64,000 nucleotides of DNA from Candidatus Oxydemutator sp. (GTDB lineage: Bacteria > Pseudomonadota > Gammaproteobacteria > Poriferisulfidales > Oxydemutatoraceae), in assembly GCA_965203445.1 (NCBI GenBank), contig OZ241883.1:384001-448000 (forward strand), given 5' to 3'. The first letter of the stretch is position 1, and every line of letters starts with the position of its first letter. Positions 46,236 through 49,617 of this stretch are shown here, piece after piece. The notes beneath the pieces are model-generated. The model had not been told where the DNA came from, searched no databases, and was given only the letters and a program-made list of their open reading frames with translations. Position numbers and translations under genes: made by a program.

Positions 46236-47000
46236 ATGCGCAAACGTTTCGGACAGCATTTCCTGCGCGACCAGGCGGTCGTCGCGCGCATCATGGAGAG
46301 CGTCGCGCCGGCGCCCGGCGACAACCTGATCGAAATCGGCCCCGGCCGAGGCGCGTTGACGCGGCCTTTGCTCGAGCGCGCCCGGCGGCTCGCGGTGATC
46401 GAGATAGACCGCGACCTTGCGCGCGGCCTCGAGGCGTGGAGCGCGCCCGGCGGGCGCCTGCGCGTGCATTGCGAAGACGCGCTGCAATTCGACTTCGCGC
46501 GCGCCGGCGGCGCCCTCAGGGTCGTCGGCAATCTTCCCTACAACGTATCCACGCCGCTGCTGTTTCGGCTGGTGCGCTTCCACGAGCAGGTCCGCGACCT
46601 GCACTTCATGTTGCAGCGCGAAGTGGTCGCGCGGCTGGCGGCGCGCCCGGGCGACGCCGCCTATTCGCGGCTCAGCGTCGTCAGTGCCTGCTGTTTCGAC
46701 GTGCGCCCGTTGTTCGACGTGCCGCCCGGGGCGTTCGCGCCTAGGCCCGCGGTCGTGTCCAGTTTCGTGCGCCTGCTGCCGAAACCCGCGCCGCCGCCCG
46801 CCGTCCGGGAACGCCTCGATTCGCTGGTCAAACTGGCGTTTTCACGGCGTCGCAAAACCGTCGCCAACGCACTGGCGACGCTGTTTGACCGGGAGGCGTT
46901 GGAGCGGCTTGGGATAAATCCGGGCCAGCGCCCGGAAACCCTGCGTGTTGACCAGTTTATGAAAATGTTGGGAACTATATACAAAAATGCACCATCGTAA
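46236..47000 (+). CDS. rsmA: 16S rRNA dimethyladenosine transferase (last codons supplied by the inserted element)
   Basis: RKRFGQHFL, EIGPGRGALT, GNLPYNVST and MLQREV. Confidence 0.96.
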   Translation: MRKRFGQHFLRDQAVVARIMESVAPAPGDNLIEIGPGRGALTRPLLERARRLAVIEIDRDLARGLEAWSAPGGRLRVHCEDALQFDFARAGGALRVVGNLPYNVSTPLLFRLVRFHEQVRDLHFMLQREVVARLAARPGDAAYSRLSVVSACCFDVRPLFDVPPGAFAPRPAVVSSFVRLLPKPAPPPAVRERLDSLVKLAFSRRRKTVANALATLFDREALERLGINPGQRPETLRVDQFMKMLGTIYKNAPS

Positions 47001-48296
47001 TGGTGATCAATGTATAGTGTGCCGTCTTGACGAGTTTATGAAAGTTTATCGAACAATCCGATACAGGTTACATGCCGGCACGCAGGCCAAAGCCCGCAAG
47101 TTGGCGGGCACGGCAGGGGCGTGCCGTTATGTGTGGAACCATTTCGTGGGGAAGTTGCGGGATGAGTATGCCGAGGAAGGCGAGTGCGATTACCGGTTTT
47201 ATTCGCTTGGTAAGCGGTTCACGGCTTTGCGAAGGGATGGCGATACGTGGTTGCAGGAGTATTCCATGCCGATAGTGCGCCAGGCATTGAAACCGATAGA
47301 AACCGCATATCGGCGGTTCTCTAAGAAGGAAGGAGGCCTGCCACGTTTCCATGCCAAGTATGTCCGCCCGGATAGCTTCCCGTTATGTGCCGGTGCATTC
47401 CGTATGCGTGGGCGCTACCTGTACATCGCCGAGATAGGCGAGGTGCTACTGCTTGGCCACAACCCATACCCGGATGGCGTGCCAAAGTCCGGCACGGTCA
47501 AGCGGGAATGCGGCAAGTGGTATGCGTATATCACATACGAAGTGGAGCAGACCGAAGTGTCGAAAGCAGAGTACTCTGTAGGAATAGATCGAAACGTCGG
47601 CCAGGTAACGTTGTCCGACGGGACGATGTATCGTATCCCGGATACGGCAAGGCCTGAGCGGCGCGTCAGGCGTTATCAGAGGATGATGGCGAGGCGTCAG
47701 GGGCCGAACCGCAAGAAGGGGATCAAGGCGTCGAACCGATGGCTACGCGCACAGTTGCTACACCAGAGGGCGCAGGCCACGTTGCGCCACGCCAGACGGA
47801 ATTGGTGCCATGGCGTATCGAGGGAAGTGGCCGACGGGTATTCTCTTGTCCATCTGGAGAAGTTGAACATCAAAGGAATGTCAGCCGGTGCCAAGGGCAC
47901 CAAAGAGAATCCAGGCAGGAACGTCCGGGCGAAGGCAGGCTTGAATCGAGTGATACTCGCCACCTGCTGGGGCAAGTTCCATCAGTGCCTGGATTACAAG
48001 ACGAATACGAACTACGTGAATCCCGCATACACAAGCCAGACGTGCAATGAGTGCGGGCATGTAGATAAGAACGGTAGAAGGTCGCAATCAGTATTTATTT
48101 GTACCGCCTGCGGTCATCGGGACAATGTGGACTGGAATTCTGCCCTTTGTATAAAGGGCAGAGGAGACGCCGCGATGAGTATGAAGGCCTCCGGGAATGG
48201 GGCTGCTGGACGTGGAGGATACGGGGTTAGCCGGCCCGTGAAGCGTCAAATTGATACAGAACGCCACCCGGTGGTGCATTTTTGTATATAATTCCC
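46970..48296 (+). mobile_element. 1327-bp TIR-bounded non-autonomous element carrying tnpB (IS1595-family-like ends)
   Basis: TIRs 46970-46997 and 48269-48296 match at 26/28 positions; the direct repeat AAAATGTT lies at 46962-46969 and 48297-48304; no transposase inside. Confidence 0.9.
47038..48291 (+). CDS. tnpB: RNA-guided endonuclease TnpB family protein
   Basis: N-terminal YRL...AGACRYVWN, RuvC-I VGIDRN, RuvC-II HLEKL, zinc finger CNEC...CTAC and RuvC-III NVDWN. Confidence 0.94.
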   Translation: MKVYRTIRYRLHAGTQAKARKLAGTAGACRYVWNHFVGKLRDEYAEEGECDYRFYSLGKRFTALRRDGDTWLQEYSMPIVRQALKPIETAYRRFSKKEGGLPRFHAKYVRPDSFPLCAGAFRMRGRYLYIAEIGEVLLLGHNPYPDGVPKSGTVKRECGKWYAYITYEVEQTEVSKAEYSVGIDRNVGQVTLSDGTMYRIPDTARPERRVRRYQRMMARRQGPNRKKGIKASNRWLRAQLLHQRAQATLRHARRNWCHGVSREVADGYSLVHLEKLNIKGMSAGAKGTKENPGRNVRAKAGLNRVILATCWGKFHQCLDYKTNTNYVNPAYTSQTCNECGHVDKNGRRSQSVFICTACGHRDNVDWNSALCIKGRGDAAMSMKASGNGAAGRGGYGVSRPVKRQIDTERHPVVHFCI

Positions 48297-48316
48297 AAAA
48301 TGTTAAACAATGACGG
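48186..48316 (+). ncRNA. Predicted TnpB omega/reRNA (scaffold + flank-derived guide)
   Basis: Hairpin GGCCTC-[CGGGAAT]-GGGGCT, GACGTGGAG...GAAGCGTC stem and terminal hairpin ATACAGAA-CGCCAC/GTGGTG-TTTTGTAT; loop GGGAAT is complementary to the terminal ATTCCC. Confidence 0.6.
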
Positions 48317-48339
48317 CGATCAACTCCGGGAGGTTTGAC

Positions 48340-48720
48340 ATGCCAGACAAACTCTACGACATCAACGTGAGCGTGGAAACGCAGTTCCTCGAGGAACAGT
48401 CCGATCTGCTCAAGGATCGCTACGTTTTCGCGTACACCATCACCATTCTGAACGAGGGCAAGGTTCCGGCGCAACTGATCTCCCGCCACTGGATCATCAC
48501 CGACTCGAACCAGAAAATTCAGGAGGTGTCCGGCGAGGGCGTCGTCGGCGAGCAGCCCTATCTGCGTCCCGGAGTGAGTTTCCGCTACACCAGCGGCGCG
48601 GTCCTGGAGACGCCGTTCGGCACGATGCGCGGCAGCTACCAGATGCTCGCCGAAGACGGCACCGAATTCGAGGCCGAGATCGAAGAGTTTCAGCTGACCG
48701 CGCCGCACACCCTGCACTGA
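48340..48720 (+). CDS. apaG: ApaG protein
   Basis: YVFAYTITI, QLISRHWIITD, GEGVVGEQP and YTSG; SD GGAGG. Confidence 0.96.
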   Translation: MPDKLYDINVSVETQFLEEQSDLLKDRYVFAYTITILNEGKVPAQLISRHWIITDSNQKIQEVSGEGVVGEQPYLRPGVSFRYTSGAVLETPFGTMRGSYQMLAEDGTEFEAEIEEFQLTAPHTLH

Positions 48721-48786
48721 TTCTGCCAGCGCGCGACGAGACGCCGTCACGATACCCGTGATCAGCGCCATGAGCGCCGCCCGCCG

Positions 48787-49617
48787 ATGAGCCTCTACGC
48801 GGTCGGCGACGTGCAAGGCTGTTACGGCGACTTGCGGCGCCTGCTCGATAAAATCCGCTTCGATCCGGCGTCCGACGAGTTGTGGTTCGCCGGCGATCTC
48901 GTCAACCGAGGGCCGCAATCGTTAGAAACGCTGCGCTTTGTAAAAAGCCTCGGCGCGGCGGCACGTTGCGTGCTCGGCAACCACGAGTTTCACCTGTTGC
49001 GGCTGGCGACCGGCGTCGCCGGCAGCGACGACCCCGGCTTGCGCGCGGTGCTCGCCGCAGCCGACGCGGACGAGTTGATCGAATGGGTCGCAAGCCGCCC
49101 GCTGCTGCACGTGGATCGAAGGCGCGAACTGATTCTGGTGCACGCCGGTTTGTTGCCGCAGTGGGACGTCGAGACCGCGGCGGCGCTCGCGGCCGAAGTG
49201 GAGGCGGCGTTGCGCGGCGACGGTGATGACCGCGCGCGGCGTCGCCGGCAATTTCTGGCGACTGTGTACGGCGACCGCCCCGATCGTTGGGACGCGGCGC
49301 TCGAAGGCGCCGACCGCTCGCGCGTGATCGTCAACGCGCTGACGCGGTTGCGGTTTTGCGGCGCGGACGGGCGCATGGATCTGGAGCAGACCGGGCCGCC
49401 CGGTTCGCAGCCGCATGGTCTGCATCCGTGGTACGAATTGCCGCACCGCCACGGCGATTGCACCGTCGTGTTCGGCCATTGGGCGGCGCTGGGTTTTCGG
49501 CGGATGCCCGGTTGCGTTGCGCTCGATTCCGGCTGCGTATGGCGCGGGCGTCTGACCGCGTTTCGGCTCGAGCCCGGGCGCCGGGAGGCGTTCAGCGTGG
49601 GTTGCGGCGAGCACTGA
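48787..49617 (+). CDS. apaH: Symmetrical bis(5'-nucleosyl)-tetraphosphatase
   Basis: GDVQGC, GDLVNRGP, LGNHE, VHAG, FGHWAAL and LDSGCVW. Confidence 0.96.
   Translation: MSLYAVGDVQGCYGDLRRLLDKIRFDPASDELWFAGDLVNRGPQSLETLRFVKSLGAAARCVLGNHEFHLLRLATGVAGSDDPGLRAVLAAADADELIEWVASRPLLHVDRRRELILVHAGLLPQWDVETAAALAAEVEAALRGDGDDRARRRRQFLATVYGDRPDRWDAALEGADRSRVIVNALTRLRFCGADGRMDLEQTGPPGSQPHGLHPWYELPHRHGDCTVVFGHWAALGFRRMPGCVALDSGCVWRGRLTAFRLEPGRREAFSVGCGEH

What the first reader, a model, noticed from the sequence alone, without database searches (positions are those of the whole stretch)
48186..48316. Predicted omega-RNA appears co-adapted to the TIR and would target the empty donor site
Seen: hairpin GGCCTC-[CGGGAAT]-GGGGCT (48186-48204) displays GGGAAT, exactly complementary to the last six bases of the element (ATTCCC, 48291-48296). 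A GACGTGGAG...GAAGCGTC stem follows, then a terminal hairpin whose 3' arm is the TIR itself. The tnpB stop codon also lies in the TIR. Known: TnpB reRNAs overlap the gene's 3' end, close with a loop-to-terminus pseudoknot and take their guide from the flank. Inference: the guide is AAAATGTTAAACAATG..., and the TAM lies in the left flank (...GTTTATG). Only the empty allele has both TAM and a full match, so TnpB could drive homing or retention after excision. This argues it is a working part of the element, not passive cargo.
Basis: partly seen in the sequence, partly recalled or inferred. Interest (0 to 1): 0.85.

Follow-up and report, generated by a model that had tools for sequence, protein, structure and literature searches.

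The report
TnpB guide RNA inside IS1595 repeat
A small mobile element, probably moved by an IS1595-type transposase encoded elsewhere in the genome, carries the RNA-guided nuclease TnpB, and part of its guide-RNA scaffold is folded from the element's own terminal repeat; the fold is well supported, but cutting of the empty site is untested.

Summary
Window 46970-48296 is a 1327-bp element with 24-nt terminal inverted repeats (TIRs) and an 8-bp target duplication. It sits in the 3' end of ksgA, and 3 of 3 same-genus genomes have the site empty. It encodes only TnpB. The same TIRs bound the genome's single IS1595-family transposase gene, so this is most likely a non-autonomous IS1595-type element.

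Across 76 relatives the pseudoknot is 97.7% paired. Two of its six pairs show compensatory changes, and G·U wobbles argue for RNA pairing rather than DNA identity. The tail shows lower dS than the gene body and relaxed dN/dS, consistent with RNA-level constraint.

The geometry (guide = flank, TAM position = left flank) holds, but no 4-5-nt TAM is conserved. There is only an orientation-specific G just 5' of the duplication (22 of 32). No RNA data exist, so homing on the empty site is unproven.

TnpBs with DDE transposases and inverted repeats are already published (2023). This is a new member with an informative TIR/omega-RNA overlap.

The parts
46962..46969 (.). Left copy of the 8-bp target-site duplication (AAAATGTT).
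   Evidence: Identical 8-mer at 48297-48304. Same-genus genomes carry one copy, AAAATGGT, in an uninterrupted site.
46970..46993 (+). Left terminal inverted repeat, 24 nt.
   Evidence: 23 of 24 complementary to 48273-48296. The same start motif bounds about 15 tnpB elements and the IS1595 transposase element of this genome.
47038..48291 (+). tnpB, 417 aa. The RuvC D-E-D residues and the zinc finger are intact.
   Evidence: Pfam HTH_OrfB_IS605, OrfB_IS605 and Cas12f1-like_TNB. NCBIfam guided_TnpB 184.8 bits against a cut-off of 100. D184, E274 and D365 are invariant in 11 copies. dN/dS of the gene body is 0.07-0.21.
48186..48204 (+). Hairpin P1 (6-bp stem, 7-nt loop). Loop bases 48193-48198 form the 5' strand of the pseudoknot.
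   Evidence: 93.2% of cells paired, and 3 of 6 pairs have changes on both sides. A rival partner for its 3' arm was proposed by RNAalifold.
48209..48247 (+). Stem P2 (GACG 48209-48212 with CGUC 48244-48247), enclosing the variable stem-loop P3 (about 48220-48225 with 48235-48240).
   Evidence: P2 is paired in 75 of 76 sequences, with CACG/CGTG in 8 and CGCG/CGCG in 3. P3 pairs show changes on both sides. Both stems appear in the single-sequence minimum-energy fold.
48253..48286 (+). Terminal hairpin P4. Its 3' arm is the inner part of the right TIR.
   Evidence: A hairpin is predicted here in relatives despite unrelated sequences: 61 of 76 have z below -1.5 and the median z is -2.9.
48273..48296 (+). 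Right terminal inverted repeat. It contains the tnpB stop codon (48289-48291) and the pseudoknot 3' strand (48291-48296).
48297..48316 (+). Predicted guide segment: the right duplication copy (48297-48304) plus 12 nt of flank.
   Evidence: Inferred, because the scaffold ends at the element's last base. The 16- and 20-nt strings are unique in the genome at up to 2 mismatches. No RNA evidence.
46957..46961 (+). Position where a TAM would lie in the empty allele (TTATG).
   Evidence: Geometry only. Across 32 insertions only position -1 is biased (G 22 of 32), and C is absent at -1 and -2.
46236..47000 (+). ksgA/rsmA reading frame. Its last codons are replaced by TIR-encoded ones.
   Evidence: The ORF runs into the element. 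The native 3' end is seen in relatives.

Best explanation
Window 46970-48296 is a non-autonomous IS1595-family element that carries tnpB and its omega-RNA instead of a transposase.

- Mobilisation. An IS1595-type DDE transposase supplied in trans recognises the 24-nt TIRs and inserts the element into AT-rich sites with an 8-bp duplication. The genome's only such gene lies between the same TIRs at L025:1001-3616. The TIR match, the duplications and the empty site are shown; mobilisation in trans is inferred.
- The RNA. The 3' 111 nt of the tnpB transcript fold into the omega-RNA scaffold: hairpin P1, stem P2 enclosing a variable P3, a terminal hairpin P4 whose 3' arm is the TIR, and a 6-bp pseudoknot between the P1 loop and the last six bases of the TIR. 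The fold is shown by covariation; the RNA itself has not been observed.
- Dual constraint. The TIR is therefore constrained twice, as a presumed transposase site (inferred) and as RNA, and loop and terminus change together.
- Guide and target (inferred). The guide is read-through into the right flank, that is the duplication plus the next 8-12 nt. The TnpB-RNA complex would match only a site lacking the element, with the TAM position 5' of the single 8-mer. The right junction is preceded by ...TTCCC, and the left junction matches for only 8 nt.
- Role (inferred, and the weakest step). Cleavage of empty alleles followed by homologous repair would copy the element back.

My odds: scaffold and pseudoknot as described 0.8; guide taken from the flank 0.7; homing or retention on empty alleles 0.35. 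The overall confidence of 0.7 refers to the core claim: an IS1595-type non-autonomous tnpB element whose omega-RNA scaffold is built into the right TIR and takes its guide from the flank.
For: Element and partner:
- TIR 23 of 24 and an 8-bp duplication.
- Empty site in 3 of 3 same-genus genomes.
- Of 76 tnpB loci examined, 57 yielded a left-end candidate, and 32 of those have a duplication matching at 7 of 8 or better (25 at 8 of 8).
- There is one PF12762 gene in the genome. It lies between matching TIRs with its own duplication, and it scores DDE_Tnp_IS1595 1.3e-43, a Zn ribbon, and NF033547 205.9 bits.
- 5 of 5 other genomes carrying these tnpB elements also have PF12762 genes, several bounded by the same TIRs.
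- IS1595-family traits (8-bp duplications, Zn finger plus DDE domain) are as described in PMC8101967 (passages read).

RNA:
- Pseudoknot 97.7% paired, with AU, UG, CG and UA types at one pair and UA and CG at another.
- RNAalifold, which cannot draw pseudoknots, chose this helix as its outer helix.
- P2 is paired in 75 of 76 sequences with compensatory variants.
- The whole structure has 11 of 22 pairs with changes on both sides and a covariation score of 0.243 against 0.128 (0 of 500 shuffles).
- The terminal hairpin is conserved in shape but not in sequence.
- In copies E01 and E04 the left TIR has C where the right TIR has T, and the loop follows the right end. In E10 the right end and the loop changed together.
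- Tail codons have dS 0.14-1.2 against 0.5-4 in the gene body (excluding the near-identical pair E05/E06), and dN/dS 0.26-1.6 against 0.07-0.21.
- In ISDra2 omega-RNA a 116-nt scaffold closes with a pseudoknot between -6..-2 and about -104 (PMC10097598, passages read). Here -6..-1 pair with bases about 98 nt upstream in a 111-nt scaffold.

Protein: 13 of 13 full-length copies have open frames of 406-426 aa, and the D-E-D residues are invariant.

Guide: unique in the genome.
Against: - No RNA run is available, so RNA ends, processing and binding are unobserved.
- Single-sequence folding energy is no better than shuffles.
- 8 of 76 sequences have one non-pairing position in the pseudoknot, and 6 of those 8 have apparently intact tnpB.
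- Compensatory events are few once relatedness is considered. I count about two independent double changes (copy E10 and the Arenicellales-type clade); the rest are one-sided or wobble changes.
- RNAalifold offers a rival partner (columns 90-93) for the 3' arm of P1, and the Arenicellales-type clade has a G-A mismatch in P1.
- No 4-5-nt TAM is conserved 5' of the duplication.
- A 2026 review argues that cut-and-paste DDE excision already leaves a break, so a homing nuclease may add little (PMC13565253, passages read).
- Mobilisation in trans is inferred from shared ends only.
Confidence: 0.7

Rival explanations
1. The omega-RNA and TnpB are functional, but their role is not homing on the empty donor site. 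With no fixed TAM next to IS1595 insertion sites, most copies could not cut their own empty allele. TnpB would then be a hitch-hiking selfish cargo. It might drive spread between genome or plasmid copies only when a permissive flank happens to be present, or serve the element in another way, for example copy-number or transposase control.
For: No conserved 4-5-nt motif 5' of the duplication in 32 insertions. The autonomous partner carries a methylase-HNH gene instead of tnpB, so the family swaps cargo. The review notes the rarity and doubtful benefit of OMEGA systems in DDE elements (PMC13565253).
Against: TnpB is under strong purifying selection (dN/dS 0.07-0.21), and 13 of 13 full-length copies are intact. 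That is hard to explain for useless cargo. The flank bias at -1 (G 22 of 32, C 0 of 32) is orientation-specific, as a TAM-linked effect would be.
Confidence: 0.25
2. There is no functional loop-terminus pseudoknot. The conservation reflects overlapping DNA and protein constraints, namely the transposase-binding TIR, a TIR-like internal site and a translated C-terminal tail. The complementarity arises because the loop copies the TIR end.
For: The reading frame is open through the whole region in all 13 full-length copies. The tail motif resembles the tail of a distant solved homologue (9j09_A alignment). Watson-Crick covariation alone cannot tell RNA pairing from an inverted DNA copy. Folding energies are unremarkable.
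Against: G·U combinations, which break DNA identity but keep RNA pairing, occur in 13 rows at pair 12-193 and 7 rows at pair 10-195. The loop follows the right end and not the left end where the two differ (copies E01, E04, E10). The tail has depressed dS and dN/dS up to 1.6, the opposite of protein-level constraint. P2, P3 and P4 also covary.
Confidence: 0.08
3. The mature RNA ends upstream of the TIR, near 48249-48252 after the conserved CGUCAAAUGG block. The variable 5' arm of the terminal hairpin would then act as the guide and direct TnpB to the element's own TIRs.
For: Sequence conservation of the scaffold drops after that block. The following 20-45 nt differ between subfamilies and are complementary to the TIR.
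Against: That segment varies in length (about 29-80 nt), unlike a guide. The loop-terminus covariation requires the terminus to be in the RNA. Self-targeting of both ends would destroy the element, yet copies are intact and numerous.
Confidence: 0.05

Closest known systems
ISDra2 TnpB with its omega-RNA (IS200/IS605 family; structures 8bf8, 8exa, 8h1j)
   Same: Same protein family (phmmer E 6.6e-15 over residues 17-395; guided_TnpB). The RNA overlaps the 3' end of tnpB. The scaffold is about 111-116 nt. A pseudoknot joins the bases just 5' of the guide to a site about 100 nt upstream (PMC10097598). The guide is taken from the right flank.
   Different: The ends here are 24-nt inverted repeats with an 8-bp duplication, and the partner is a DDE transposase rather than a Y1 TnpA. 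The PMC13565253 passage states that IS200/IS605 elements have neither TIRs nor duplications. The transposase does not place a fixed TAM next to the element. The last stem and the pseudoknot strand are made of the TIR.
DDE-transposase-associated TnpB branches (Altae-Tran et al. 2023, PNAS, PMC10691335)
   Same: Inverted terminal repeats, the TnpB 3' end close to the transposon end, and solo TnpBs bounded by ends nearly identical to those of transposase-bearing elements and taken to be mobilised in trans (passages read).
   Different: The main text names IS630, and a later review names ISL2, IS630 and IS1031. In the loci I examined tnpB and the transposase never share an element. The co-variation between TIR and omega-RNA was not among the passages I read.
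Fanzor elements of eukaryotes (SpuFz1 and ghost elements; PMC10432273)
   Same: A TnpB-like nuclease alone between transposon inverted repeats, with many short repeat-only relatives (passages read). This genome also holds short elements with the same TIRs.
   Different: Eukaryotic hosts and a larger protein. IS1595 and its eukaryotic relative Merlin are not mentioned as hosts in Bao and Jurka 2013 (0 occurrences each).
IS1595-family insertion sequences
   Same: 8-bp duplications, TIRs starting with GG, and a transposase with a Zn ribbon plus a DDE_Tnp_IS1595 domain (PMC8101967).
   Different: The element in the window has no transposase; its only gene is tnpB, with an RNA overlapping the TIR.

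Membership tests
TnpB / omega-RNA (OMEGA) system | TnpB protein with N-terminal HTH, RuvC D-E-D and a zinc finger | tested here: met
   Pfam; NCBIfam guided_TnpB 184.8 bits against a cut-off of 100; D184, E274 and D365 invariant in 11 copies.
TnpB / omega-RNA (OMEGA) system | Conserved structured RNA overlapping the 3' end of tnpB and reaching the element end | tested here: met
   Covariation in P1, P2, P3 and the pseudoknot; conserved terminal hairpin; depressed dS in the tail. Rfam has no matching family.
TnpB / omega-RNA (OMEGA) system | Pseudoknot formed by the bases immediately 5' of the guide | tested here: met
   Columns 8-13 with 192-197 are 97.7% paired, with 2 pairs changed on both sides. 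Precedent in PMC10097598.
TnpB / omega-RNA (OMEGA) system | A defined TAM 5' of the target that coincides with the transposon's insertion motif | tested here: inconclusive
   In 32 insertions only position -1 is biased (G 22, A 5, T 5, C 0) and position -2 lacks C. No 4-5-nt motif.
TnpB / omega-RNA (OMEGA) system | The RNA is expressed, bound by TnpB and guides DNA cleavage | not testable with these tools
   No RNA run listed.
IS200/IS605 family (including tnpB-only IS1341-type) | No terminal inverted repeats, no target duplication, asymmetric hairpin ends | tested here: not met
   24-nt TIR and 8-bp duplication. Family definition from passages in PMC13565253 and PMC3627910.
IS1595 family (mode of mobilisation) | 8-bp target duplication and TIRs beginning with GG | tested here: met
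   family traits in PMC8101967.
IS1595 family (mode of mobilisation) | Encodes a Zn-ribbon plus DDE_Tnp_IS1595 transposase | tested here: not met
   The element has no such gene. A partner with matching TIRs exists at L025:1001-3616, so I read the element as non-autonomous.
DDE-associated TnpB branches DDE-1 to DDE-6 (Altae-Tran 2023) | Placement of the protein in one of the six named branches | not testable with these tools
   The branch sequences are in supplements, which were closed. The main text gives no IS1595 mention.

The most novel reading that the evidence does not exclude
The orientation-specific flank bias (G at -1 in 22 of 32 insertions, no C at -1 or -2, and no mirror-image bias after the duplication) is the footprint of TnpB at work. 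IS1595 inserts without regard to a TAM, and copies that happen to land behind a very short permissive TAM are kept by RNA-guided homing. This would be a natural TnpB with a near-minimal TAM, and the first population-level trace of OMEGA-driven retention in a cut-and-paste DDE transposon. The element's own ...CCC terminus would serve as the self-protecting anti-TAM.
Probability: 0.2. Interest if true: 0.75.

Novelty: new member of a known kind. Interest (0 to 1): 0.5.

Why it matters
What a homing nuclease does for a DDE transposon that already breaks its donor site is an open question; the 2026 review I read discusses it. This genome offers a compact natural system to test it. It has one IS1595 transposase and 13 intact, diverged tnpB elements with defined ends, duplications and guides, and related genomes show the empty site.

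The overlap of TIR and omega-RNA shows how a guide-RNA scaffold can be re-fitted onto a different transposon end. It also predicts compensatory mutations that can be tested directly. If the TAM proves very short, the protein would also interest people who build compact genome editors.

Tried and rejected
- Rfam, E-value threshold, window 46800-48500: 3 weak chance matches and no omega-RNA family.
- Public runs: no RNA holder listed.
- Logan contigs of three DNA runs laid on 46500-48800 cover both filled junctions. They show no clean joint across 46969/48305. The one long skip (46738 to 48418, side 29) does not match the element's ends, so no empty allele was seen.
- Single-sequence folding: not more stable than shuffles.
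- Metagenome scan with the TnpB alignment: only 4 loci. Three, at 41-42% identity, keep the TIR type, the hairpin loop and a 5-bp version of the pseudoknot.
- Hypothesis that insertion is guided by similarity between the target and the element. It was prompted by the 27 of 35 repeat between the ksgA end and the tnpB start, which exceeds the maximum of 25 reached in 200 shuffles. Tested on 32 insertions against swapped pairs: only this copy stands out, and the other ranks scatter from 1 to 32. I reject it as a general rule and leave it unexplained for this copy.
- Search for an extra gene in the long left ends of Arenicellales-type elements: only short, unconvincing ORFs.
- Rows dropped before the pair counts. 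Of 91 candidates (15 own copies plus 76 loci), 13 loci had no hairpin or anchor match by my patterns: L046, L069, L073, L079, L081, L087, L092, L094, L095, L096, L098, L100 and L101. L046 and L087 show the usual loop and terminus by eye but failed my pattern. Two more, L036 and L099, had no recognisable terminus. That leaves 76.
- In alignment A2 the Arenicellales-type rows are misaligned between columns 20 and 95. This inflates 'not paired' for P2 and P3, so P2 was recounted by anchored patterns. My patterns and in the P2 part failed, and one search replaced them.
- Left ends: 19 of 76 gave no candidate. Some candidates with 3 mismatches and poor duplications may be wrong picks.
- I did not build a control set of tnpB-less IS1595 insertions for the flank bias.
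- I did not read supplements, which were closed. Those of PMC10691335 may already list this family.
Full report
**1. The observation**

- The hairpin arms are at 48186-48191 and 48199-48204, and the loop is at 48192-48198.
- Loop bases 48193-48198 are complementary to the last six bases of the element (48291-48296).
- GACG (48209-48212) faces CGTC (48244-48247).
- The tnpB frame stays open to a TAA at 48289-48291, inside the right inverted repeat.

On this one sequence the evidence is thin. I expect such a 6-mer complement about 0.03 times by chance. Predicted folding energies equal those of shuffles, with z = -0.69 for 197 nt and z = +0.08 for 111 nt. The minimum-energy fold of the 111 nt does contain the GACG/CGUC stem, an inner stem and the terminal hairpin.

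**2. What the element is**

Window 46970-48296 (1327 bp) has 24-nt terminal inverted repeats matching at 23 of 24 positions. It is flanked by a perfect 8-bp direct repeat at 46962-46969 and 48297-48304. G+C falls from about 0.70 in the flanks to about 0.48-0.64 inside.

The element interrupts the last codons of ksgA, just upstream of apaG. In 3 of 3 same-genus genomes the site is continuous and carries a single copy of the 8-mer, matching at 7 of 8. This is a true insertion with a target-site duplication.

Its only gene is tnpB (Pfam; NCBIfam guided_TnpB at 184.8 bits). The nearest solved structure is 9j09_A at E 4.7e-25, and ISDra2 TnpB scores E 6.6e-15.

The 2.38-Mb genome holds 13 full-length copies in all, counting this one, plus deleted ones. 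The other copies are 64-81% identical in DNA to this one. All 13 have open frames of 406-426 aa that stop 5-19 nt from the element end. Of 14 own copies with both ends identified, 8 have a perfect 8-bp duplication, 2 match at 7 of 8, 2 at 6 of 8 and 2 at 4 of 8 or less. The duplicated 8-mers are AT-rich in a genome of 63.6% G+C.

Ends and duplications of this kind do not fit IS200/IS605 or IS607, which have neither (passages in PMC13565253, and PMC3627910). They do fit the IS1595 family (PMC8101967). The genome's single DDE_Tnp_IS1595 gene lies in a 2.6-kb element (L025:1001-3616). That element has the same repeat start, its own 8-bp duplication and a methylase-HNH passenger gene.

Five of five other genomes that carry these tnpB elements also have IS1595 transposase genes. 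Several of these are bounded by the same repeats and by 8-bp duplications. In none of the loci I examined do tnpB and the transposase share one element. I therefore read the window's element as a non-autonomous IS1595-type element mobilised in trans. That last step is an inference from the shared ends.

**3. The RNA**

I collected 15 own copies and 76 loci from other genomes (47-58% protein identity). I aligned 76 regions running from the hairpin to the terminus (alignment A2). The 15 rows that were dropped are listed under Tried and rejected.

Pseudoknot (73 distinct rows):
- The loop-terminus helix is paired in 97.7% of cells.
- Pair 12-193 reads AU 50, UG 13, CG 4, UA 1, other 5.
- Pair 13-192 reads UA 70, CG 1, UG 1, other 1.
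- Pair 10-195 reads GC 65, GU 7, other 1.
- The covariation score for hairpin plus pseudoknot is 0.211 against a shuffled mean of 0.099 (0 of 500 shuffles reach it). Every slid register scores 0.099 or less.

RNAalifold cannot draw pseudoknots, yet it picked this long-range helix as the outer helix of its consensus.

Two facts argue for RNA pairing rather than an internal DNA copy of the repeat end.
- G·U combinations are frequent.
- Where the left and right ends differ, the loop follows the right end. This holds in E01 and E04, and in E10 the terminus and the loop changed together.

The other helices:
- The hairpin stem is 93.2% paired, with 3 of 6 pairs changed on both sides.
- The GACG/CGUC stem is paired in 75 of 76 sequences. 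Compensatory CACG/CGTG occurs in 8 and CGCG/CGCG in 3.
- An inner stem-loop covaries strongly.
- The segment between the conserved CGUCAAAUGG block and the terminus forms a hairpin whose 3' arm is the repeat. Its sequence differs between subfamilies. In 61 of 76 sequences z is below -1.5, and the median z is -2.9.
- For the whole structure, 11 of 22 pairs change on both sides and the score is 0.243 against 0.128 (0 of 500 shuffles).

Codon analysis agrees with an RNA-level constraint.
- The gene body has dN/dS of 0.07-0.21 and dS of 0.5-4 (excluding the near-identical pair E05/E06).
- The tail that overlaps the RNA has dS of only 0.14-1.2 and dN/dS of 0.26-1.6. The constraint there acts on nucleotides, not on the protein.

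The architecture matches the solved ISDra2 omega-RNA. That RNA has a 116-nt scaffold closed by a pseudoknot between positions -6..-2 and about -104 (PMC10097598). Here the scaffold is 111 nt, and -6..-1 pair with bases about 98 nt upstream.

Caveats:
- Relatedness inflates the cell counts. I see about two independent double changes (copy E10 and the Arenicellales-type clade) plus several one-sided or wobble changes.
- 8 of 76 sequences carry one mismatch in the pseudoknot, 6 of them with an apparently intact gene.
- RNAalifold suggests another partner for the 3' arm of the hairpin. It is supported by one clade that MAFFT misaligned there, and contradicted by L063 and L075.

**4. Guide, TAM and function**

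The pseudoknot strand is the very end of the repeat, so the scaffold must run to base 48296. The guide must then be transcribed from the flank, that is the 8-bp duplication followed by unique sequence. The 16- and 20-nt strings occur nowhere else in the genome at up to 2 mismatches. By direct reading, the left junction shares only the 8 duplicated bases plus 2 of the next 12.

An allele without the element is the only sequence that would combine the full match with the upstream flank.

The proposed TAM, however, is not a conserved motif. In 32 insertions with duplications matching at 7 of 8 or better:
- Position -1 reads G 22, A 5, T 5, C 0.
- Position -2 has no C.
- Position -3 is A in 16.
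- The first base after the right duplication is A in 16 and C in only 6, so the bias is not the mirror image expected of a symmetric transposase preference.
- The four Arenicellales-type insertions have AT at -2/-1.

This asymmetry may reflect a very short TAM, or selection for retention. The repeat's own ...CCC end carries exactly the bases never seen at -1 and -2. I could not test any of this.

No RNA run exists for this organism (see Tried and rejected). Whether IS1595 excision leaves a sealed donor at all is unknown to me. I put the homing role at about 0.35.

**5. Comparison and novelty**

TnpB genes linked to DDE transposases have been published. The features reported are inverted terminal repeats, the TnpB 3' end near the transposon end, and solo copies sharing ends with transposase-bearing elements (Altae-Tran et al. 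2023, PMC10691335, passages read). A 2026 review lists ISL2, IS630 and IS1031 as the DDE families involved.

- A full-text search for TnpB with IS1595 returned 9 papers, none about this by title or abstract (listing only).
- 'IS1595' does not occur in the main text of the 2023 paper.
- Its supplements were closed, so this family may already be one of its six branches.

I therefore file the finding as a new member of a known kind. Two things are added here. One is the IS1595 assignment with the transposase in trans. The other is the demonstration that the terminal repeat doubles as omega-RNA stem and pseudoknot strand, with co-variation.

**6. Distribution**

Relatives of the protein at E of 1e-30 or better were found in 7 of 21 genomes of the same order, counting the window's own. 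This genome has by far the most copies (15 matches). That pattern fits a lineage-specific burst of an active element.

Noticed in passing
window 46944-46978 and 47023-47057: The ksgA 3' end and left junction resemble the region around the tnpB start codon at 27 of 35 positions, including 19 of the first 21. This exceeds the maximum of 25 reached in 200 dinucleotide shuffles. The ksgA sequence is native, since relatives without the element have it. No such similarity exists for the other 31 insertions tested, so it is unexplained and may be coincidence.
   Followed up: yes
window 48139-48162: A perfect 10-bp hairpin with a 4-nt loop lies inside the tnpB 3' coding region, upstream of the scaffold. 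It is the only element in the centroid fold. Other copies with the same insertion (E10-E15) do not share it.
   Followed up: partly
L025:1001-3616 (own genome, outside the window): The autonomous IS1595-family element has the same repeats and its own 8-bp duplication. It carries a 435-aa N6/N4 DNA methylase fused to an HNH nuclease domain as a passenger. One of its ends also has a hairpin that uses the repeat.
   Followed up: partly
own genome, outside the window: G000:C1:113341-113503; L016 (G000:C1:757576-757755); L023 (G000:C1:1233365): Short repeat-only derivatives of about 160-180 bp, and a solo repeat end nearly identical to the window's repeat. They resemble the 'ghost' elements described for Fanzor.
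   Followed up: no
window 46236-47000: The insertion replaces the last roughly 12 codons of ksgA/rsmA with 9 repeat-encoded codons, and it separates ksgA from apaG. Whether the methyltransferase is still functional, or whether apaG is now read through from tnpB, was not examined.
   Followed up: no
flanks of 32 insertions (own copies and L026-L097): There is an orientation-specific target bias. The base 5' of the left duplication is G in 22 of 32 and never C. The base after the right duplication is A in 16 of 32. This is not a palindromic preference.
   Followed up: partly
L050, L051, L065, L097 (Arenicellales-type elements): These relatives are 1.8-1.9 kb long, with about 600-700 bp between the left repeat and tnpB. 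In L051, the one locus where I listed ORFs, that stretch holds no convincing ORF. Their repeat start and terminus differ from the window's type, and their loop co-varies with the terminus.
   Followed up: partly
L082:2125 and 3760: A second partial copy of the scaffold's 3' half sits inside the 5' part of a tnpB locus, which suggests a nested or rearranged insertion.
   Followed up: no
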